Source: Bacillota bacterium
Lineage (GTDB): Bacteria; Bacillota; Clostridia; Christensenellales; CAG-138
Direction: 5' to 3'
Length of the DNA: 64,000 bases
NCBI GenBank assembly: GCA_023399275.1
Contig: JAEWQH010000096.1
Location: 2,190 to 66,189, forward strand
In this document: positions 16,120 to 60,975 of the stretch, one piece after another
Layout: the number at the start of each line of letters is the position of its first letter
Numbering within the stretch: position 1 is the first letter of the stretch
Made by a program: the position numbers and the translations under genes
Notes under the pieces: generated by a model
Told to the model about the DNA's origin: nothing
The model's database searches: none
What the model saw: the letters and a program-made list of their open reading frames with translations, nothing else

Positions 16120-16405
16120 GAAAGGATTGCCGCGCACCCGTTCTTTGACAAACACGCCTCCGGGCGACGCTCTGACAGGTTGCTCCTTTCAGGCTGCTCC
16201 GCGGCACATCGCGTTTTCCGCTGAATGCTGCTTCCGTCAGGACCTGACATGGTTCACGGCCTGCGATTGCACGGGACCCGACGCTCAACGCCCCTTATCG
16301 GGATCTGACCCCACAGGCGCTTGCCGGGGAACGGGACTTCTGCCCTGCTGTAGCGGATTGCAGGTTCAGGGCACCGCTAACTCCCCGCCTAGCGCGGCAA
16401 ACTGG
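16120..16405 (-). ncRNA. ffs: Signal recognition particle RNA, large Bacillus-type (Alu domain + S domain)
   Basis: The reverse strand reads ...GCCGCGCUAGGCGGGGAGUUAGCGGUGCCCUGAACCUGCAAUCCGCUACAGCAGGGC... This is near-identical to the B. subtilis scRNA Alu domain as I remember it. It also contains the universal domain IV motif GAACCAUGUCAGGUCCUGACGGAAGCAGCAUUCAGCGG...AUGUGCCGCGGAGCAGCCUG. The 5' UUGCCGCGC (16400-16392) pairs with the 3' GCGCGGCAA (16135-16127). Ends are approximate. Confidence 0.9.
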
Positions 16406-19810: not shown

Positions 19811-20886
19811 ACGCCGCCCGGCTCTCCGGCGAGCAGCTCGCTGCGTTCGGCCACGGTCAGCGCGTCGATCATCTCTTCCATATCCCCGTCCAAAAACGCT
19901 TCCAATTTGTACAGCGTCAGCCCGATGCGGTGGTCGGTCACACGCCCTTGCGGAAAGTTATAGGTGCGGATGCGCTCGCTGCGGTCGCCGGAGCCGATCT
20001 GGCTCTTGCGTGCGCCCGCGCGTTCCGATTTCTGCTGGTTGTGGTAGTAGTCGTACAGCCGGCTTTTGAGCACGCGCATGGCCTGCTCCTTGTTCTTCAG
20101 CTGTGATTTTTCATCCTGGCAGGAGACGACCATGCCCGTAGGCAGATGCGTAATGCGAATTGCGCTCTCGGTTTTATTGACGTGCTGCCCGCCAGCGCCG
20201 CTGGAGCGATAGGTATCGATGCGAAGATCGTTCTCTTTGATATCGACCTGCACGTCGTCCACCTCCGGGAGCACGGCCACCGTCGCCGCGCTGGTGTGGA
20301 TACGCCCCTGCGACTCCGTCTCGGGTACGCGCTGGACGCGGTGCACGCCGCTTTCATATTTCAGGCGGCTGAACGCGCCGCGCTTTCCGCCGATGGAGAG
20401 CACGACTTCTTTTACGCCGCCCATGTCGGTGAGGCTGCTGGAGAGATACTCCGTCTTGTAGCCCTGCCGCTCGGCATACCGAAGGTACATCCTGAGCAGA
20501 TCGGCGCCAAAGAGCGAGGCTTCGTCCCCGCCTGTTCCGGCACGGATCTCGAGGATGACATCCCGTTCGTCGTTCGGGTCTTTGGGCAGCAGCAGGATAT
20601 GCAACTGCTCGCCCAGCGACGAAAGCTTTTTCTCGAGCTCCTCCATCTCCGCGTGAACAAGCTCCTTCATCTCGCCGTCCAGGTGTTCGCCGAGCATGCT
20701 CTTGCAGTTTTCCAGCGCCTGCTTTACAGACGCGTATTCGTCAAATGCCAGCACGATTTCCTCGAGCGACGCCCGCTCCTTGACCATGTCGCGCCAGGCT
20801 TCGCGATCCGCCAGCGCATCCGGTTCCGCCAGCTTCTCCGAAAGAAAGTTGAAGCGTTGTTTGATTCCCTGCAGTTTGTCGATCAT
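19807..20886 (-). CDS. prfA: Peptide chain release factor 1
   Basis: [16 protein letters not shown] (GGQ motif) and PxT-type region ([10 protein letters not shown]). Start at ATG 20886 ([12 protein letters not shown]). Confidence 0.95.
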
Positions 20887-20978
20887 CGTTCCTCCGAATG
20901 ACGGGCCCGTCTGTTCGCTCCGGCCCGCGCCGCACGCGCAGAATCCGATGCGGCCGCGTGCAGGCAAAAGATCATATG

Positions 20979-21812
20979 TTATTCAGATGGGCCCTCTTCC
21001 ACAACGAGCACGCGCGGATTGCCGGAATAGTCGCGCAGCACGCTCGTGCTTGCATCAAACAAAGCGGCTGCGGCCTCGGCCTGCGTATTGCCGATCTCGA
21101 GCAAAAGCGCCCCGCCCGGACGCAGGTGCGCCGGATAGTCCCAAGCGATTTTGCGGTAAAAATCCAGCCCGTCTCCGCCGCCATAGAGCGCGATCCTTGG
21201 CTCAAACGCAAGCTCAGGCTGCAGCGCCTGCATATCCGCCAGCGAAAGATACGGCGGATTGCAGACGATCAGGTCATATTTCTCGTCGATCTGCCGAAAC
21301 AGATCGCTCTCAATCCAGGCGAGGCGAACCTCGTTTCGCTCCGCGTTTTCGCCGGCCAGCGCGAGTGCGTCCGCGCTGATATCCGAGGCGGTTACGTCTA
21401 TTCCGGTCTGCTTTGCAATGCAGATGCCGACGCAGCCGCTGCCCGTGCAGAGATCCAGACAGGTTTGATATCCCCGCCGACGGATCCGCTCGATCGCGGC
21501 TTGAACCAGCAGTTCCGTATCCTGCCGCGGGATGAGAGCGCGCGCATCTGCATAAAACGGCAGACCGAAAAACTCCCATTCACCCAGGATATACTGCAGC
21601 GGTTCGCGCTTAACGCGGCGGGAAAGCATATCGCCCAAGTCGGCAAGCTGCTCCGGCGAAAGCGCCATGTCCGCGTGGATCGCCAGCACAGCGGGCTCTA
21701 CACCGGCGACAGCCGAAACCAGGATCTTCGCCTGCTGGAGGGCTTCCTCCTGCGCCACAGGCTCGATCATGATCTTCGCTTCACGAACGGCTTCCGAAAC
21801 GCGAATGCTCAA
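20979..21812 (-). CDS. prmC: Release-factor glutamine N5-methyltransferase
   Basis: SAM-binding [10 protein letters not shown] and catalytic NPPY (VCNPPYLS). TTG start at 21812. Confidence 0.9.
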
Positions 21813-21844
21813 ATTGCAACCTGCTCCTTTTCCTGTTGTGCCTG

Positions 21845-22783
21845 CTACGCCGCTTGCGCCTGCTCCGGCAGTACGCCGTCGTAAATGGCAAGGTTAAATG
21901 CCGCGATTGCGACCTCGATCATGGCAGGCTCCGGTTCGCGCGTGGTCAGATACTGCAGCCCCAACCCAGGCGCGCGAATGATACGCGCCCAGAGCGCATC
22001 CGAAGCTGCCGCAAGCTTGAGCACCTCATAAGCAAGCCCGGCTACGAGCGGCAGAAAGACCAGCCGCGTCAGCACCCGCAAAAACAAGTTTTCGGCATAC
22101 GGCAGCATGGCAAAAAACAGGATGGAGACCGCCATGACGAGAAAGAGATAGTTCGTTCCGCAGCGCGCGTGCAGCCGGGAGTATTGCATAGCGCTCTCTG
22201 GCGTGAGCGGCGCGTCGTGTTCATAGCAGGCGATGGTCTTATGCTCCGCTCCGTGATACATATAGACCCGACGGATATCCTTCATCAACGAGATGGCAGT
22301 GATGTAACCCAAGAAAATAAACAGCCGCACGAAGCCCTCCACAAGGCTCTTCCAGATGCGGGGCGAACCCTCCGGCCAATGGATCAGCTGCGTCACCAGC
22401 GATGGCAGCAGAACAAAGAGGCCGATGGCGAGCACAGCCGCGAGCGCGACGGCAACGACGATGGCGATATCCATCACGTCCTTGCCGGTCTTTTTCGCGA
22501 TCCATTTTTCAAACGCACTCGGTTCCTCCTCAATCTCCTCGCCGTAAAGCTCCGCCGAGCGCGTCATCATCTTCATACCTGTTGCGAGCGAGTCGACAAA
22601 CGCGACCACGCCGCGCACGACGGGCCACTTGAGGACCGGACTCTTGCCGGTTTCTTTTTTGGGTGTATATTCCGTCTCGATGCTGCCGTCCGCTTTTCGA
22701 ACGGCGAGTGCGATCCCGCCGCTCATGGTGCGCATCATAACGCCCTCCATGACGGCCTGACCACCAACCGAGCATCGTTTCAT
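21845..22783 (-). CDS. DUF1385 family membrane protein (YqhQ-like)
   Basis: MKRCSVGGQAVMEGVMMR... and the YHGAEHK motif. It sits in the usual rpmE - DUF1385 - prmC - prfA position. Start moved to ATG 22783, because the track extension to 23134 overlaps rpmE out of frame. Confidence 0.85.
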   Translation of the reverse strand: MKRCSVGGQAVMEGVMMRTMSGGIALAVRKADGSIETEYTPKKETGKSPVLKWPVVRGVVAFVDSLATGMKMMTRSAELYGEEIEEEPSAFEKWIAKKTGKDVMDIAIVVAVALAAVLAIGLFVLLPSLVTQLIHWPEGSPRIWKSLVEGFVRLFIFLGYITAISLMKDIRRVYMYHGAEHKTIACYEHDAPLTPESAMQYSRLHARCGTNYLFLVMAVSILFFAMLPYAENLFLRVLTRLVFLPLVAGLAYEVLKLAAASDALWARIIRAPGLGLQYLTTREPEPAMIEVAIAAFNLAIYDGVLPEQAQAA

Positions 22784-22885
22784 GATCTGTTTTCCCTTCT
22801 GTGTATTTCCGTGCGCCGCCGTGCAATCCGGCGGCCTGTTTCCTGCATGGTTCCGATTATTGTACCATACGCCGGATGCCCGGGC

Positions 22886-22916
22886 AAGAAAAAACCTCCC
22901 CTGTGATGGGAAGGTT
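22886..22916 (-). terminator. Rho-independent terminator after rpmE
   Basis: Reverse strand: AACCTTCCC-atcaca-GGGGAGGTT followed by TTTTTTCTT. Confidence 0.7.
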
Positions 22917-22926
22917 TTCACGCCTT

Positions 22927-23124
22927 TTACAGACCGTAACGCTTTTTGAAACGGTCGACACGTCCGCCGCTGTCCACAAGCTTTTGCTTGCCCGTGAAAA
23001 ACGGATGGCACTTGCTGCAGATTTCGACAGTCAGCTCCTCTTTCGTGGAACCGGCCTTGAAGGTTTCGCCGCAAGCACAGCGAACCGTGGCTTCGCCGTA
23101 TTTCGGATGGATGTCCTTCTTCAT
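22927..23124 (-). CDS. rpmE: 50S ribosomal protein L31 (zinc-binding type A)
   Basis: [22 protein letters not shown]...[13 protein letters not shown]. Full-length match to the L31 consensus. Confidence 0.97.
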
Positions 23125-23241: not shown

Positions 23242-25083
23242 CTATTTCCCAAAGCGGCTGGTAGACATGGTCGTATACCCGTCTTTTTCGTAGATGCCCA
23301 CCCAATCCTTGAGACGCTGGAGAAACTCTTCGTTGTTGCCGGTCTTTTCGAGCATGCCGATGAGGTGCTCCGTCACGTCCGCCGGGTTGCCGCCGGCAAG
23401 TACGCGGCGGATGGTGCGAACGCCCTCCAACTCCTCCGCAGAGAGCAGCAAGTCCTCCCTGCGCGTGCCGGATTTGTAGATATCTATGGCCGGGAAGATC
23501 CGCCGCTCGCTGAGCTTGCGATCGAGGTGAATCTCCATGTTGCCCGTACCCTTGAACTCTTCATAGACCATGTCGTCCATGCGGCTGCCTGTTTCGGTCA
23601 GCGCGGTTGCGATAACGGTGAGACTGCCGCCGTTTTCGATCTTGCGCGCCGCGCCGAAAAAGCGCTTCGGCTTGTGCAGCGCGCCCGGATCCATACCGCC
23701 GGAGAGCGTGCGCCCCGTCGGCGGAATCGTGAGGTTATACGCGCGCGCAAGCCGCGTGAGACTGTCGAGCAGGATGACGACGTCCTTCCCCATCTCGACG
23801 AGGCGCATGGCGCGCTCCTGCACCATTTCCGCAACGCGCGTGTGGTGCTCCGGCAGCTCGTCAAATGTAGAATAGAGCACCTCGCCCTTGATGGAACGCT
23901 GCATATCGGTTACCTCCTCGGGCCGCTCGTCGATGAGCAGCACGATGAGGTGCGAATCGGGATAGTTTTTCGAGATGCCGTTTGCGATGCTCTTGAGCAG
24001 CGTTGTCTTGCCCGCCTTTGGCTGGGAGACGATCATGGCGCGCTGGCCCTTGCCGATGGGTGCGATCAGATCGATCAACCGGATGGCGAGGCTGTTTGTG
24101 CCCGGCAGCTCCAGGGTATAGCGCTCAAAGGGGAACACCGGAACAAGTTCCTCAAAGGGTTTGCGCTCCACGATGCTCTCCGGCGACTCGCCGTTGACCG
24201 CCGTGATGTAGAGCAACGCCAGAAAACGCTCGCCTTCCTTTGAAGGACGCGTCTTTCCGGTGACCATGTCGCCCGTGCGCAAGCCGAAGCGGCGGATCTG
24301 CGCGATGGAGACATATACGTCGTGCTGTCCGGAGAGATAGTTTTCGCTGCGCAGGAAGCCGTAGCCGTCCGGCAGCACTTCGAGCACGCCCTCCGCGTCG
24401 CCGCACTCGCCCGTCTGAAGAATCTCGGGTACGGCGGGATTGCTGGTTCCGTAGTCTTTGTTATAATACCCCTCGGGGTTACGGCCACGATAGTTGCGGT
24501 CGCCCTCAAAGCCCCCCTGCTCAGCGCCGAAGCCCTGCGAGGGATATCCCTGCTGAAAACCGGGCTGCTGATAGCCGCCCTGCTGCTGATACGTATTTTG
24601 CTGGTAGTTGTTGCCGCGCTGGTATCCGCTCTGCTGATAGCCGCCTTGCTGATACCCCCCCTGCTGATAGCCGCCCTGCTGCTGGAAATTTTGCTGGTAG
24701 CTGCCCTGCGAGGCGTATTGCCGTCTCTGGTAGCCGCCCTGCTGGCGGTTGTCGTAGTAGGGTTTATTCTGCTGGTAGGGACGCGGCGTATAGCCGGAGC
24801 GGCGATAGCCGCCATCTGCTTCCTGCGGCATGCCTGCGCCCGACATATCCGCATCCGTCAGTGGGATCGGGGCCGCTTCACTGACCGGCGGCGCGGCGGG
24901 TGCTTCGGCGGCGGCTTCGTCTTCCGCGCCGGCAGACGCAAAACTGGGAGGCACGACCCCCCCTCCCATGATGATCTCTATGAGCTCATTTTTTCGATAT
25001 TTGGTTAAGGATTTCACACCTTGCAGTTTTGCGATTTCACGCAAGTCTCCAAGGCCCTTGGCCTCTAGCTGTTCCTTGTTCAA
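23242..25083 (-). CDS. rho: Transcription termination factor Rho with a large N-terminal low-complexity insertion
   Basis: Rho_N ([22 protein letters not shown]), RNA-binding CSD ([15 protein letters not shown]) and ATPase core ([30 protein letters not shown]). TTG start at 25083 with GAGGAG 7 nt upstream. Confidence 0.95.
24448..24816 (-). repeat. Coding low-complexity tandem repeat (Q/G/Y-rich, QQGGY units) inside rho
   Basis: Residues ~90-212. The plus strand shows recurring CTGCTGATAGCCGCC units (e.g. 24566, 24631, 24661). Confidence 0.85.
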
Positions 25084-25166
25084 CTGTAAACTCCTCTCTA
25101 CGGTAAGACCATCTACCTGTTAACGAAATCAAGAAGCTGATTCGATATGACCTCTTGGATGAAGAA

Positions 25167-25195
25167 ATCATATCGTCGGGCCGGGTTTTTGTCAA
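25167..25195 (-). promoter_or_regulatory. Sigma-A-type promoter for rho, TTGACA-17-TATGAT
   Basis: Reverse strand: TTGACA (25195-25190), 17-nt spacer, TATGAT (25172-25167). Leader of about 75 nt. Confidence 0.65.
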
Positions 25196-25601: not shown

Positions 25602-26057
25602 ATGGCAAACAGACCGACAGAACGAATCGAGCGCATCAAAACCGGATTTCGCATCCGGCCTCGCTATATCATTCTCTTTTTTATTCTGACCATCTTCGTG
25701 CTCGGTGGCGTATTTCTCTCGCAGCAGACCAAACTGACCACCATCGCCGATGAAAAAACAGAGCTGCAGACCCAGCTCGACAATCTCAAGATCGAGGAAG
25801 AGCGGTTGGAGCGTATGCTGGAGTACATGAGTACAACGGACTATATCATCCAATACGCGCGCGAAAAACTCGGTTACGTATTTGAGGACGACTGGAAGTT
25901 TTACGATGACTCGAACAATGTAAAGGTTACGCCCAAGCTCGCCGAAACGCCAACGCCATTGCCCGCGCTGACAACGCCAAAGTCTTCCCCCTCTCCAACG
26001 TCGACACCGCTGCCCACAACGCCGCCCGATGTCGCCATTGTGACCCTGGGGCCATGA
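25602..26057 (+). CDS. Septum formation initiator family protein (FtsB/DivIC-like)
   Basis: Single TM (YIILFFILTIFVLGGVFL) followed by a coiled coil (KTELQTQLDNLKIEEERLERMLEYM) and DYIIQYAREKLGY. P/T/S-rich tail. ATG 25602 has no RBS, but TGC-TAAGAT lies 7-8 nt upstream. Confidence 0.8.
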   Translation: MANRPTERIERIKTGFRIRPRYIILFFILTIFVLGGVFLSQQTKLTTIADEKTELQTQLDNLKIEEERLERMLEYMSTTDYIIQYAREKLGYVFEDDWKFYDDSNNVKVTPKLAETPTPLPALTTPKSSPSPTSTPLPTTPPDVAIVTLGP

Positions 26058-26983
26058 CCGGTATGAAACTGCTTGTTTTCGACATCGGCAGCAACTCCAT
26101 TCGCACCCTGCGCGTCGCAAGCGATGCACAGGGCATTCCTGATTTTACCGGCAAACGCGTCTATACGACCCGCCTTGCGGAAGGTCTCGCCGAAACCGGC
26201 GCGCTCTCCCAGGCTCGCATGAGGCAGTCCCTGCTCGTGATTCGCTCAATACATGGCGAACACGCACCGCAGGGATTTTCTTCATATGCATATGCAACCA
26301 GCGCCGTGCGGGATGCGTCCAACGGCGCTGCTTTTATCCGTTCTGTAGAAGAGATCATCGGCCGCGGCCACGCGCGTGTTCTCAGCGGCGCGGATGAGGC
26401 ATCGTTTGCCCAACAGGGCGCCGCCCCGGAAGGCGAAAGAATCATCGTGGATATCGGCGGGGGCAGCACGCAGATCGTCCGGCCAAGCTCGCGCAAAAGC
26501 TGGCCGATCGGGTGCGTCCGTGCGAAAGACCTCGCGCCGTATCAGGATCTAGCCTCCATTGCCAACGGACTCTACCCTGTTCTTTCGGGCGTGTTTGGAC
26601 AGCCCGGCGGGATCTCCAGGCCCGTTCGCCCCGCCTCTCCGATGGATCGGCTTTCTCCGCAGGAAACCTTGCTCGGCGTCGGCGGAACGATTACGACACT
26701 CGCCCTGCTCTGCGAAGGGAAGGATTCGTTTGCGCCGTGGGCAGGCGAAAAAAGGATTGAGCTGTTTGCACTGCGCGCGGTGCTCAACGCGCTAGACGGC
26801 ATGGGGGATGCACAGCGCGCAAAAGTGCCGCTGCTCAAAGACCGGCACGATGTGATCCTCCACGGCGGCGTGATCTTGCAGTATCTGATGGAGGCTCTGC
26901 AAAATCCGCGCATCGGCGCAACGCTTTCGGACGGGCTGGACGGATACGCGCTCCATCTGCTCAAAACGCTGCCGCGAGCATAA
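26054..26983 (+). CDS. Ppx/GppA family phosphatase (exopolyphosphatase-like)
   Basis: MKLLVFDIGSNSIRTL, DIGGGSTQ. ASKHA-fold motifs of the Ppx-GppA family. The start overlaps the upstream stop (ATGA). Confidence 0.8.
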   Translation: MTGMKLLVFDIGSNSIRTLRVASDAQGIPDFTGKRVYTTRLAEGLAETGALSQARMRQSLLVIRSIHGEHAPQGFSSYAYATSAVRDASNGAAFIRSVEEIIGRGHARVLSGADEASFAQQGAAPEGERIIVDIGGGSTQIVRPSSRKSWPIGCVRAKDLAPYQDLASIANGLYPVLSGVFGQPGGISRPVRPASPMDRLSPQETLLGVGGTITTLALLCEGKDSFAPWAGEKRIELFALRAVLNALDGMGDAQRAKVPLLKDRHDVILHGGVILQYLMEALQNPRIGATLSDGLDGYALHLLKTLPRA

Positions 26984-40038: not shown

Positions 40039-40112
40039 TGGCAGGGGCACTAGGGCTCGAACCCAGAAGAACGGTTTTGGAGACCGCTATGTTACCATTA
40101 CATCATGCCCCT
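40039..40112 (-). tRNA. trnW: tRNA-Trp (anticodon CCA)
   Basis: Reverse strand AGGGGCATGATGTAATGGTAACATAGCGGTCTCCAAAACCGTTCTTCTGGGTTCGAGCCCTAGTGCCCCTGCCA folds as a 74-nt cloverleaf. It has a 7-bp acceptor, D stem ATGT/ACAT, anticodon loop CTCCAAA and T loop TTCGAGC, with CCA encoded. Confidence 0.93.
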
Positions 40113-60899: not shown

Positions 60900-60975
60900 T
60901 GGTGGAGCATGGGGGATTCGAACCCCCGACCTCAACATTGCGAACGTTGCGCGCTACCAACTGTGCTAATGCCCC
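60900..60975 (-). tRNA. trnA: tRNA-Ala (anticodon CGC)
   Basis: Reverse strand GGGGCATTAGCACAGTTGGTAGCGCGCAACGTTCGCAATGTTGAGGTCGGGGGTTCGAATCCCCCATGCTCCACCA. 76 nt, with the G3:U70 Ala identity pair, anticodon loop TTCGCAA and T loop TTCGAAT, CCA encoded. There is one A/C mismatch in the D stem. Confidence 0.9.

What the first reader, a model, noticed from the sequence alone, without database searches (positions are those of the whole stretch)
24448..24816. Rho carries a ~120-aa Q/G/Y-rich tandem-repeat insertion (prion-like / low-complexity domain candidate)
Seen in sequence: the insertion lies between the Rho_N helix bundle and the cold-shock-like RNA-binding domain. The ORF first encodes an acidic Ala/Pro stretch, then about 120 residues made almost only of Q, G, Y, N and R. 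That stretch reads ...[72 protein letters not shown].... At DNA level this is a degenerate 15-nt periodic repeat (CTGCTGATAGCCGCC on the plus strand at 24566, 24631 and 24661). Established knowledge: E. coli-type Rho lacks such a segment. A Q/N-rich insertion in Clostridium botulinum Rho was shown to act as a prion-forming domain that switches termination efficiency genome-wide (Yuan and Hochschild, Science 2017). Inference: this G/Y/Q composition is closer to FUS-like phase-separating domains. The perfect short repeats make the length prone to slippage and strain-to-strain variation.
Basis: partly seen in the sequence, partly recalled or inferred. Interest (0 to 1): 0.6.

Follow-up and report, generated by a model that had tools for sequence, protein, structure and literature searches.

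The report
Rho factor with Sup35-like disordered insert
The transcription terminator Rho of this uncultured Clostridia bacterium carries a ~180-residue disordered insertion whose tyrosine/glutamine/glycine repeats resemble the yeast Sup35 prion domain; it is a new example of a known class of Rho add-ons that tune termination by self-association or RNA binding.

Summary
The ORF at 23242..25083 (-) is a full-length Rho of 613 aa. About 182 extra residues (41-222) sit exactly between the N-terminal helix bundle and the cold-shock-like RNA-binding domain. Residues 90-212 are 77% Q/G/Y/N/R, have no I/L/V/M, and carry an aromatic residue every 5±1 positions. The quoted 15-mer occurs exactly three times, at 24565 (not 24566), 24631 and 24661.

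All 120 closest protein clusters, from MAGs labelled Christensenella sp., Eubacteriales or Clostridiales, share one modular insert:
- a variable acidic linker;
- a conserved Arg/Tyr block;
- a variable-length (QQGGY)n array;
- a conserved C-terminal block.

Synonymous sites between relatives are saturated, yet the two conserved blocks show dN/dS ≤0.05. Tyr positions are 92% conserved, so the insert is under selection.

Its composition and motifs match yeast Sup35 N, with shared 7-mers such as QQGGYQQ. They do not match FUS, which has 20 [G/S]Y[G/S] triplets against 0 here.

Rho insertion domains that are disordered, prion-like or phase-separating are already described (Moreira 2024; Krypotou 2023 and 2026; Yuan and Hochschild 2017). 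Y/Q-containing repeats in Clostridia Rho were noted by Schumbera 2023. This is a new member of a known kind. The condensation or prion behaviour is inferred, not shown.

The parts
23242..25083 (-). rho coding sequence, 613 aa plus stop, with a TTG start. A Shine-Dalgarno AGAGGAG lies at 25091-25097, 7 nt upstream of the start.
   Evidence: ORF list and sequence. NCBIfam Rho equivalogs score 614 and 581 bits. Phmmer gives 444 bits to E. coli Rho structures. Relatives also begin with TTG and [14 protein letters not shown].
24964..25083 (-). Residues 1-40: the N-terminal helix bundle (Rho_N), ending in IIMGG.
   Evidence: Pfam Rho_N covers residues 5-38 at 28.1 bits, above the 24.9 cut-off. AF2 predicts helices 3-8, 11-20 and 31-39 with pLDDT 82-90. 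The segment is nearly invariant in relatives.
24820..24963 (-). Residues 41-88: a variable acidic Ala/Pro/Glu/Ser linker, net charge -8 in this protein. It contains a 12-nt periodic DNA repeat at 24886-24919.
   Evidence: Composition. The sequence is not conserved (25-40% aa identity, dN/dS about 0.65), but the acidic charge is kept: median -11, range -3 to -14 in 83 orthologues. TRF result.
24715..24819 (-). Residues 89-123: a conserved Arg/Tyr-rich block, [35 protein letters not shown], with net charge +5 and 7 aromatic residues.
   Evidence: It is 91-94% identical to relatives whose synonymous sites are saturated. dN is about 0.05 and dN/dS about 0.05. Y98 and Y110 are invariant; R95, R101, R120 and R121 are at least 90% conserved.
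24529..24714 (-). Residues 124-185: the (Q-Q-G-G-Y)n tandem-repeat array. It is 82% Q/G/Y/N/R with an aromatic residue every 4-6 positions. Its DNA carries the period-15 repeats and the three exact 15-mers at 24565, 24631 and 24661.
   Evidence: DNA repeats; composition. The spacing CV over residues 113-180, which contain the array, is 0.13 against 0.80 in shuffles, with 0 of 10000 shuffles reaching it. Length varies between relatives through indels. dN/dS is about 0.18.
24418..24528 (-). Residues 186-222: the conserved C-terminal block of the insert, [37 protein letters not shown]. It includes the invariant motif [15 protein letters not shown].
   Evidence: Columns Y206 to E220 are invariant in 36 sequences. 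dN/dS is 0.02-0.03 over residues 186-230, which include this block. The motif [14 protein letters not shown] also occurs in more distant long-insert Clostridia Rho proteins (P0125, P0128-P0133).
24178..24393 (-). Residues 231-302: the cold-shock-like primary RNA-binding domain (Rho_RNA_bind).
   Evidence: Pfam scores 113 bits. The domain aligns to E. coli Rho from residue 44 onward.
23470..24084 (-). Residues 334-538: the RecA-type ATPase/translocase domain, with Walker A PKAGKT at residues 355-360.
   Evidence: Pfam ATP-synt_ab scores 93 bits. The domain aligns to E. coli Rho.
25084..25195 (-). The rho promoter (TTGACA-17-TATGAT, 25195..25167) and an ~80-nt 5' leader. Both are almost invariant in relatives.
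   Evidence: Promoter scan gives 11 of 12 matches. Alignment with L083, L084 and L086 shows the conservation. There is no Rfam match and no covariation.

Best explanation
This is the essential-type transcription termination factor Rho in its 'atypical, type 2' form. About 182 intrinsically disordered residues are inserted between the N-terminal helix bundle and the cold-shock-like RNA-binding domain.

The insert is modular and has four parts in order:
1. An acidic Ala/Pro linker whose sequence is free but whose charge is kept.
2. A conserved Arg/Tyr block with net charge +5.
3. A variable-length Sup35-like (QQGGY)n array with evenly spaced tyrosines.
4. A conserved block that leads into the RNA-binding domain.

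Inferred mechanism: six such tails project from the RNA-loading face of the hexamer, giving about 150 Tyr/Phe and about 60 Arg per ring. They act as multivalent 'stickers' through Tyr-Tyr, Tyr-Arg and Arg/Tyr-RNA contacts. These contacts would make Rho self-associate reversibly with RNA into condensates or higher-order assemblies. They would also extend the RNA-binding surface, and so tune where and how strongly Rho terminates. The acidic linker may fold back on the basic block as an autoinhibitor.

Shown here: the protein's identity, the insert's position, composition and modular conservation, and purifying selection on it. Inferred only: disorder (from proxies), condensation, RNA contact and autoinhibition.
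For: Identity and position.

Disorder proxies:
- There is no I/L/V/M in 123 residues.
- FoldIndex is below 0 for windows centred on residues 70-234.
- AF2 pLDDT is 24-38 with no secondary structure across residues 51-228.

Sticker-spacer pattern:
- The region holds 24 aromatic residues with spacing CV 0.32, against 0.84 in shuffles (0 of 10000 shuffles reach it).
- Aromatic columns are 92% conserved, against G 63%, N 45% and S 22%.
- In 83 orthologues the aromatic fraction is fixed at 0.16-0.19 and the net charge at +4 to +6, while length varies from 99 to 139 aa.

Selection: synonymous sites are saturated, yet dN/dS is at most 0.05 in the two conserved blocks and about 0.18 in the array.

Lineage: all 120 nearest clusters keep the insert.

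Precedents:
- The B. thetaiotaomicron Rho IDR drives RNA- and ppGpp-dependent condensation through short conserved charged motifs, with autoinhibitory intra-IDR contacts (PMC13269538).
- Mycobacterial Rho IDRs phase separate (bioRxiv 10.1101/2025.08.28.672908).
- The M. tuberculosis NID is disordered and needed for Rut-site engagement (PMC13650167).
- Rho additional regions are widely predicted to be disordered and droplet-forming (PMC11347177).

From established knowledge rather than a test here: evenly spaced aromatic residues with Arg favour liquid-like assembly in prion-like domains.
Against: - There is no experimental datum for this protein or its lineage.
- The established predictors (PLAAC, FuzDrop, IUPred) could not be run. 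The PAPA-like score is my own re-implementation, with propensities recalled from memory.
- The AF2 model is poor overall (mean pLDDT 47.9, shallow alignment), so low pLDDT in the insert is only weak evidence of disorder.
- The insert lacks the K/E-rich subdomain that actually drives B. thetaiotaomicron Rho condensation. In that protein the prion-like subdomain alone was not sufficient for RNA-elicited phase separation (PMC13269538).
- The even aromatic spacing follows automatically from a 5-residue tandem repeat, so it need not have been selected for.
- The whole insert has net charge -6, which is not obviously favourable for RNA binding.
Confidence: 0.55

Rival explanations
1. The insert is a true prion-forming domain of the Clostridium botulinum Rho or yeast Sup35 type. 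It would occasionally convert to a self-propagating amyloid that inactivates Rho. The result would be heritable genome-wide read-through.
For: - It passes the Q/N-rich criterion, with 35 Q/N in 80 residues.
- Its PAPA-like score of 0.14 equals that of the Sup35N control at 0.135.
- It shares the Sup35 oligopeptide-repeat core QGGYQQ and 7-mers such as QQGGYQQ. The Sup35 sequence used was verified against PDB 9xbn.
- C. botulinum Rho sets a precedent, as summarised in PMC11347177, PMC12360218 and PMC4703818.
Against: - There is no Asn-rich amyloid core like the C. botulinum NNNNSNFNNNSNNNSSFNNSN (PMC4703818). The segment has only 9 Asn in 123 residues and no Asn run.
- It is 21% Gly and has 10 Arg, 2 Lys and 7 Asp/Glu scattered through it.
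- Its evenly spaced aromatic residues are associated with liquid-like rather than amyloid assembly (established knowledge).
- In Sup35 the repeats support propagation, while nucleation lies in the N-terminal Q/N tract, which has no counterpart here.
- B. fragilis Rho has a QN motif yet did not aggregate under the conditions tested (PMC11347177).
- Prion predictors have high false-positive rates in bacteria.
Confidence: 0.12
2. The insert is mainly an RNA-recruitment extension of the primary binding site, as in Mycobacterium tuberculosis, Micrococcus luteus and Bacteroides fragilis Rho. It would help Rho load on structured or G-rich transcripts of a fairly GC-rich genome. Condensation would play no regulatory role.
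For: - The window is 58.9% GC.
- The most strongly conserved parts are the Arg/Tyr blocks (YRR, PRP, NR, YQRRQY, RNYRGRN), with dN/dS of at most 0.05.
- The insert lies next to the cold-shock-like RNA-binding domain.
- The M. tuberculosis NID is disordered, and its deletion reduces the selected Rut sites from 1759 to 47 (PMC13650167).
- RxR motifs in Rho inserts have been proposed to bind RNA (PMC11347177).
Against: - The region has only 12 basic residues in 123 aa and no RGG boxes. The whole insert has net charge -6.
- The 62-residue uncharged Q/G/Y array is kept in all 120 relatives and is hard to explain by RNA binding alone.
- This rival is not exclusive of the main explanation, because RNA binding drives condensation in B. 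thetaiotaomicron Rho.
Confidence: 0.25
3. The array is a functionally neutral low-complexity expansion produced by replication slippage in a tolerant surface loop. It would be merely tolerated, not used.
For: - The DNA is a period-15 tandem repeat with identical units beyond what codon bias predicts (P about 0.01).
- Its length differs between relatives.
- Many bacteria, E. coli included, do without any insert (PMC10284900).
Against: - The insert is retained in all 120 closest clusters, across divergence at which synonymous sites are saturated.
- dN/dS is about 0.18 in the array and at most 0.05 in the flanking blocks.
- Tyr positions are 92% conserved, and the aromatic fraction and net charge stay within narrow limits.
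Confidence: 0.05

Closest known systems
Bacteroides thetaiotaomicron Rho IDR (Krypotou et al. 2023; PMC13269538)
   Same: Both inserts sit at the same place, between the helix bundle and the cold-shock-like domain. Both have subdomains of conserved composition but variable length and sequence, separated by short and strongly conserved charged motifs. Both include a prion-like Q/N-type subdomain next to the RNA-binding domain, and an acidic element that could be autoinhibitory.
   Different: The B. thetaiotaomicron IDR is 309 aa and is driven by a 176-residue K/E-rich subdomain through complex coacervation. This insert has only 2 Lys, is Tyr-rich (16% in the core) and Gly-rich, and shows no sequence similarity. 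Condensation and ppGpp dependence were shown for B. thetaiotaomicron Rho and are untested here.
Clostridium botulinum Rho prion-forming domain (Pallares 2016, PMC4703818; Yuan and Hochschild 2017)
   Same: Both come from class Clostridia, have the same insertion point, and are polar low-complexity segments of about 120 aa with a positive prion-propensity score.
   Different: The C. botulinum domain is Asn-rich, with an N/S/F amyloid core. This one is Q/G/Y-rich with Arg, has no Asn tract, and shows regular 5-residue aromatic periodicity. Prion behaviour has been shown only for C. botulinum Rho.
Yeast Sup35 N domain oligopeptide repeats (PQGGYQQYN)
   Same: The compositions are almost the same: Q24 G21 Y16 here against Q28 G17 N16 Y16 in Sup35 N. 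The aromatic density is the same, at 19.5 against 18.7 per 100 aa. The proteins share the 7-mers [14 protein letters not shown] and YQQGGYQ. Both domains are attached to a termination factor.
   Different: There is no homology: BLASTP gives E = 0.10 with composition adjustment. This is convergence. The Rho insert has 10 Arg against 2, fewer Asn, and lacks the N-terminal Q/N nucleation tract. It is internal rather than N-terminal, and it acts in transcription termination rather than translation termination.
Tandem-repeat Rho IDRs of Lachnospiraceae: YQSRGD x14 in Clostridium symbiosum and RNYQD x5 in Blautia obeum (Schumbera et al. 2023, PMC10284900)
   Same: These are also Clostridia Rho inserts built from short tandem repeats containing Y and Q (and R). 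They were noted as independent convergent duplications.
   Different: The repeat units differ. Here the unit is QQGGY, uncharged, with Arg confined to the flanking conserved blocks. None of these inserts has been studied experimentally.
Mycobacterium tuberculosis Rho N-terminal insertion domain (PMC13650167)
   Same: Both are disordered inserts at the same site, in a GC-rich genome, with conserved Arg-containing motifs.
   Different: The M. tuberculosis NID is Arg/Asp/Gly-rich and not prion-like by PLAAC (PMC11347177). It has no aromatic repeat array.
FUS low-complexity domain
   Same: Both are disordered G/Q/Y-rich domains with regularly spaced tyrosines.
   Different: FUS is 24% Ser and has 20 [G/S]Y[G/S] triplets and no YQQ. 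The Rho insert is 4% Ser and has 0 such triplets and 8 YQQ. The composition distance is 0.233, against 0.134 to Sup35 N.

Membership tests
Transcription termination factor Rho | The full-length match to curated Rho equivalog models scores above their cut-offs. | tested here: met
   NF006886 scores 614.4 bits (cut-off 315) and TIGR00767 scores 581 bits (cut-off 509.45).
Transcription termination factor Rho | The three canonical domains are present in order: N-terminal helix bundle, cold-shock-like RNA-binding domain, and RecA-type ATPase with a Walker A motif. | tested here: met
   Pfam finds Rho_N at residues 5-38, Rho_RNA_bind at 231-302 and ATP-synt_ab at 334-538. Walker A PKAGKT lies at 355-360. 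The protein scores 444 bits against E. coli Rho structures.
Transcription termination factor Rho | The protein forms a hexameric RNA-dependent ATPase/helicase that releases transcripts. | not testable with these tools
   This needs biochemistry.
[quoted passage not shown] | An extra polypeptide lies between the N-terminal helix bundle and the RNA-binding domain. | tested here: met
   Window residue 223 aligns to E. coli Rho residue 44, and Rho_N ends at about residue 40. The insert is therefore residues ~41-222.
[quoted passage not shown] | The extra region has an exceptional, biased amino-acid composition. | tested here: met
   Residues 90-212 are 77% Q/G/Y/N/R, with entropy of 2.4-2.5 bits.
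[quoted passage not shown] | The extra region is predicted to be intrinsically disordered. | tested here: met
   The test used proxies only. FoldIndex is below 0 for windows centred on residues 70-234. There are no aliphatic residues in 123 aa. AF2 pLDDT is 24-38 with no secondary structure, but the model is poor overall. flDPnn and IUPred were not available.
[quoted passage not shown] | The motifs run APA, then QN, then RxR along the insert. | tested here: inconclusive
   By eye, EAPAAPP comes at the start, the Q-rich array in the centre, and RNYRGRN near the end. The published MEME motif models were not available to score.
Prion-forming domain (C. botulinum Rho or yeast type) | The domain has Q/N-rich, prion-like composition. 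| tested here: met
   It holds 35 Q/N in 80 residues, above the threshold of 30. The PAPA-like maximum is 0.142, above 0.05. That score comes from my own re-implementation, so treat it as indicative.
Prion-forming domain (C. botulinum Rho or yeast type) | The domain contains an Asn-rich amyloid core like that of C. botulinum Rho. | tested here: not met
   There is no Asn run, and only 9 Asn in 123 residues. The C. botulinum core is NNNNSNFNNNSNNNSSFNNSN (PMC4703818).
Prion-forming domain (C. botulinum Rho or yeast type) | The domain forms amyloid and propagates heritably. | not testable with these tools
   This needs ThT or EM assays, SDD-AGE, and in vivo reporter assays.
Sup35-type oligopeptide repeat domain | The domain has tandem QGGYQQ-containing repeats in a Q/N/G/Y-rich context. 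| tested here: met
   It has four GGYQQ units and shares three 7-mers with Sup35 N. Q/G/Y/N/R make up 77-82%, against 80% in Sup35 N. The Sup35 N sequence was verified against PDB 9xbn.
Sup35-type oligopeptide repeat domain | The domain shares ancestry with Sup35 N. | tested here: not met
   BLASTP with composition adjustment gives E = 0.10. Phmmer of the insert against PDB finds nothing. The resemblance is convergent.
FUS-family low-complexity domain | The domain has repeated [G/S]Y[G/S] triplets in a Ser-rich context. | tested here: not met
   It has 0 triplets against 20 in FUS LC, and Ser at 4% against 24%. The FUS sequence was verified against PDB 5w3n.
Phase-separating Rho IDR (B. thetaiotaomicron or mycobacterial type) | Short conserved charged motifs are embedded in variable subdomains of conserved composition. 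| tested here: met
   Two conserved blocks (residues 89-123 and 186-222) flank variable regions.
Phase-separating Rho IDR (B. thetaiotaomicron or mycobacterial type) | A K/E-rich subdomain drives condensation. | tested here: not met
   There are only 2 Lys in residues 41-230.
Phase-separating Rho IDR (B. thetaiotaomicron or mycobacterial type) | [quoted passage not shown] | not testable with these tools
   This needs purified protein and microscopy.

The most novel reading that the evidence does not exclude
A whole lineage of uncultured Christensenella-like Clostridia may have convergently evolved, inside the transcription terminator Rho, the same QGGYQQ oligopeptide-repeat module that makes the yeast translation terminator Sup35 a prion and stress-sensing condensate former. 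This Rho would then switch reversibly, or even heritably, between soluble and assembled states. Repeat number, which differs between species, would set the switching threshold.
Probability: 0.12. Interest if true: 0.7.

Novelty: new member of a known kind. Interest (0 to 1): 0.35.

Why it matters
Rho sets the genome-wide pattern of transcription termination, so a domain that changes its assembly state or RNA choice rewires hundreds of genes at once. Experiments so far cover charged (B. thetaiotaomicron, mycobacteria) and Asn-rich (C. botulinum) inserts. This lineage offers an aromatic 'sticker-spacer' insert with natural length variants, clearly delimited conserved motifs and a close sequence analogue in Sup35. 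That makes it a clean test of whether tyrosine-driven condensation or prion formation also regulates termination in bacteria. If it does nothing of the kind, it is simply one more catalogued Rho low-complexity insert.

Tried and rejected
- Phmmer of the insert against PDB sequences found nothing, because bias filters remove low-complexity matches.
- The genome-contig scan was swamped by conserved ATPase patterns. It returned 80 distant Rho loci and none of the close relatives. They served only as a composition background: Tyr is 0-7% in 40 other inserts, against 10-12% here.
- The exhaustive representative search with the insert alone gave only 13 hits. It showed that the C-block motif occurs in other long-insert Clostridia Rho proteins, and that (YQQGG)n arrays also occur in unrelated zinc-ribbon membrane proteins.
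- The test for strain-level repeat polymorphism failed. The two other contigs encoding this exact protein are 100% identical in DNA to the window.
- The AF2 model was poor (mean pLDDT 47.9) because the alignment is shallow and closely related. I used it only as a weak disorder proxy.
- Indel sizes in the array are not clean multiples of 5 residues, so simple unit slippage is not the whole story.
- The cluster look-up gave no organism names.
- The Science papers by Yuan and Hochschild (2017) and Krypotou (2023) are not held in the library. I cite them through papers that describe them.
- The supplementary tables of Moreira 2024 are not held, so I could not check whether this lineage is in their dataset.
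- The FUS-like reading was rejected on motif and composition counts.
- The overlapping antisense and out-of-frame ORFs (for example 24322..25008 on + and 24075..24854 on -) were dismissed as by-products of GC-rich repetitive sequence lying inside a strongly supported rho frame.
Full report
**1. The observation**

The finding lies inside the ORF at 23242..25083 on the minus strand (613 aa, TTG start, with a Shine-Dalgarno AGAGGAG 7 nt upstream). Pfam finds Rho_N at residues 5-38, Rho_RNA_bind at 231-302 and the RecA-type ATPase at 334-538. The two NCBIfam Rho equivalog models score 614 and 581 bits, well above their cut-offs.

The coordinates 24448-24816 correspond to residues 90-212. This segment contains Q30, G26, Y20, R10 and N9, which is 77% of its 123 residues. 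It has 24 aromatic residues and not one Ile, Leu, Val or Met. Sequence entropy falls to 2.4-2.5 bits. An acidic Ala/Pro stretch (residues 41-89, net charge -8) precedes it.

The 15-mer CTGCTGATAGCCGCC is present exactly at 24565, 24631 and 24661. No shuffle gave as many matches. TRF reports period-15 arrays at 24618-24681 and 24548-24585.

Phmmer against solved structures aligns window residue 223 with E. coli Rho residue 44. The extra segment is therefore residues ~41-222, exactly between the helix bundle and the cold-shock-like domain.

**2. Anatomy from relatives**

The 120 best protein clusters (72-87% identity overall) come from MAGs labelled Christensenella sp., Eubacteriales, Clostridiales or Firmicutes. 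All of them carry the same kind of insert. The start of the RNA-binding domain falls between residue 164 and residue 316.

Alignment shows a modular architecture:
- The helix bundle, ending in IIMGG.
- An acidic linker of about 45 residues that is unalignable. It keeps a net charge with median -11 in 83 orthologues.
- A conserved Arg/Tyr block, [34 protein letters not shown].
- A (QQGGY)n array that gains and loses units.
- A conserved block, [31 protein letters not shown], which leads into the RNA-binding domain.

The catalytic core (residues 231-613) is 97-98.7% identical among the nearest relatives. The Arg/Tyr-plus-array region, by contrast, ranges from 99 to 139 residues.

Codon analysis against three relatives shows saturated synonymous sites (dS of 1 or more). 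Despite that, dN/dS is at most 0.05 in both conserved blocks, about 0.18 in the array and about 0.65 in the acidic linker.

Within residues 90-212, aromatic positions are 92% conserved, against 63% for Gly, 45% for Asn and 22% for Ser. The aromatic fraction (0.16-0.19) and net charge (+4 to +6) are held within narrow limits. Aromatic residues occur every 5±1 positions. The spacing CV is 0.32, against 0.84 in shuffles, and 0 of 10000 shuffles reach it. This regularity is inherent to a 5-residue repeat.

The insert is therefore old, selected and modular. It is not recent slippage debris.

At the DNA level, three of four GGYQQ units use an identical 15-mer. Given the window's codon usage this has P of about 0.01, which suggests some ongoing duplication or conversion.

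Strain-level polymorphism could not be tested. The only other contigs with this protein are identical in DNA to the window.

**3. Disorder and prion-likeness**

I could not run PLAAC, IUPred or FuzDrop. The proxies I could run gave the following:
- FoldIndex is negative for windows centred on residues 70-234.
- AF2 gives pLDDT of 24-38 and no secondary structure for residues 51-228. The model is poor overall, with mean pLDDT 47.9.
- The best 80-residue window holds 35 Q/N, above the classical threshold of 30.
- A PAPA-like score peaks at 0.14 at residue 149. The controls score 0.135 for Sup35 N, 0.099 for FUS LC and -0.069 for E. coli Rho. This score is my own re-implementation, with propensities recalled from Toombs et al. 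2010.

**4. FUS-like or Sup35-like?**

I first verified my remembered Sup35 N and FUS LC sequences against PDB entries 9xbn and 5w3n. The comparison then gave:

| Feature | Rho insert | Sup35 N | FUS LC |
|---|---|---|---|
| Composition distance to the insert | n/a | 0.134 | 0.233 |
| Shared 7-mers with the insert | n/a | [21 protein letters not shown] | none |
| [G/S]Y[G/S] triplets | 0 | 1 | 20 |
| [G/S/N]YQ motifs | 8 | 9 | 0 |
| Ser content | 4% | 4% | 24% |

BLASTP with composition adjustment gives E = 0.10 between the insert and Sup35 N. The likeness is therefore convergent, not homologous. The nearest analogue is the Sup35 oligopeptide-repeat region, with added arginines.

**5. What is known**

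Rho insertions at this site are a recognised class.
- Moreira et al. 2024 (PMC11347177) classify such proteins as type 2 Rho. They find this type in 22% of Bacillota species. They describe an APA, QN, RxR motif order and predict disorder, droplet formation and sometimes prion-likeness.
- Three functional modes have experimental support. The first is condensation that raises termination activity in B. thetaiotaomicron, governed by short conserved charged motifs, intra-IDR autoinhibition, RNA and ppGpp (PMC13269538), and also in mycobacteria (bioRxiv 10.1101/2025.08.28.672908). The second is prion/amyloid conversion in C. botulinum (PMC4703818; Yuan and Hochschild 2017, as summarised in PMC11347177 and PMC12360218). 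The third is RNA recruitment and Rut-site selection in M. tuberculosis (PMC13650167).
- Schumbera et al. 2023 (PMC10284900) already pointed out tandem Y/Q/R/D repeats in the Rho IDRs of two Lachnospiraceae.

In a convenience sample of 40 other insert-bearing Rho genes, Tyr is 0-7% of the insert, against 10-12% here. The aromatic-rich flavour is therefore unusual but not unprecedented.

The C-block motif [14 protein letters not shown] recurs in other long-insert Clostridia Rho proteins with different repeat units. One example is (QGYPQ)x7 in P0125.

**6. Most likely mechanism (inferred)**

Six disordered tails per hexamer project from the RNA-loading face. Together they carry about 150 aromatic and about 60 Arg residues. 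Tyr-Tyr, Tyr-Arg and Arg/Tyr-RNA contacts could make Rho assemble reversibly with RNA. They could also extend its RNA-binding surface and so tune termination. The acidic linker may mask the basic block. I give this model about 0.55.

The rivals are:
- a pure RNA-recruitment role (0.25);
- a heritable amyloid prion (0.12), disfavoured by the lack of an Asn-rich core, the 21% Gly, the scattered charges and the evenly spaced aromatic residues;
- neutral slippage junk (0.05), contradicted by the selection data.

**7. Verdict**

Repeat length varies between species, and strain-level variation is untested. The insert is a new member of a known kind. Interest is moderate to low, and it would rise if the convergent Sup35-like module were shown to switch Rho activity.

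Noticed in passing
window 25084-25195 (-): The rho promoter (TTGACA-17-TATGAT) and an ~80-nt 5' leader are almost invariant in three relatives whose synonymous sites are saturated. There is no Rfam match and no covariation-supported structure. It could be an autoregulatory leader, but it remains unexplained.
   Followed up: partly
window 25602-26983 (+); also L084 4151-5553 and L086 4242-5620: A divIC-like gene and a Ppx/GppA-family phosphatase gene lie divergently upstream of rho, and this arrangement is conserved in relatives. Because ppGpp is required for B. thetaiotaomicron Rho condensation, the neighbourhood is suggestive. It may equally be coincidental.
   Followed up: no
window 25602-26057 (+): The DivIC homologue ends in a Thr/Pro/Ser-rich low-complexity tail (…TPTPLPALTTPKSSPSPTSTPLPTTPP…).
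   Followed up: no
proteins P0123, P0127 and P0126: Unrelated metagenomic proteins carry long (YQQGG)n or (NGYQQ)n arrays like the Rho insert. Two are N-terminal zinc-ribbon proteins, one of them with a long hydrophobic, probably membrane-spanning, C-terminal part (P0123). The third has two C-terminal Cys/His motifs that look like a C2H2-type zinc finger. None was scanned against a domain library. The repeat type is therefore reused outside Rho.
   Followed up: no
proteins P0125 (700 aa) and P0132 (755 aa): More distant Clostridia Rho proteins share the motif [22 protein letters not shown] just before the RNA-binding domain. Their inserts are much longer and use other repeat units, such as (QGYPQ)x7. 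The motif may be a lineage-wide functional element of insert-bearing Clostridia Rho.
   Followed up: partly
window 24886-24919: A second, 12-nt periodic DNA repeat (2.9 copies) lies in the Ala/Pro-rich acidic linker of rho.
   Followed up: no
window 16130-16397 (-); 40042-40112 (-); 60903-60975 (-): A bacterial large SRP RNA (175 bits) and two tRNA genes were found by the Rfam scan of the window.
   Followed up: no
window 20242-23124 (-), from L081 gene calls: Downstream of rho the gene order is rpmE, a DUF1385 gene, prmC and prfA. In relatives this continues with sua5, rpiB and upp. The neighbourhood is conserved and groups termination and translation-release genes.
   Followed up: no
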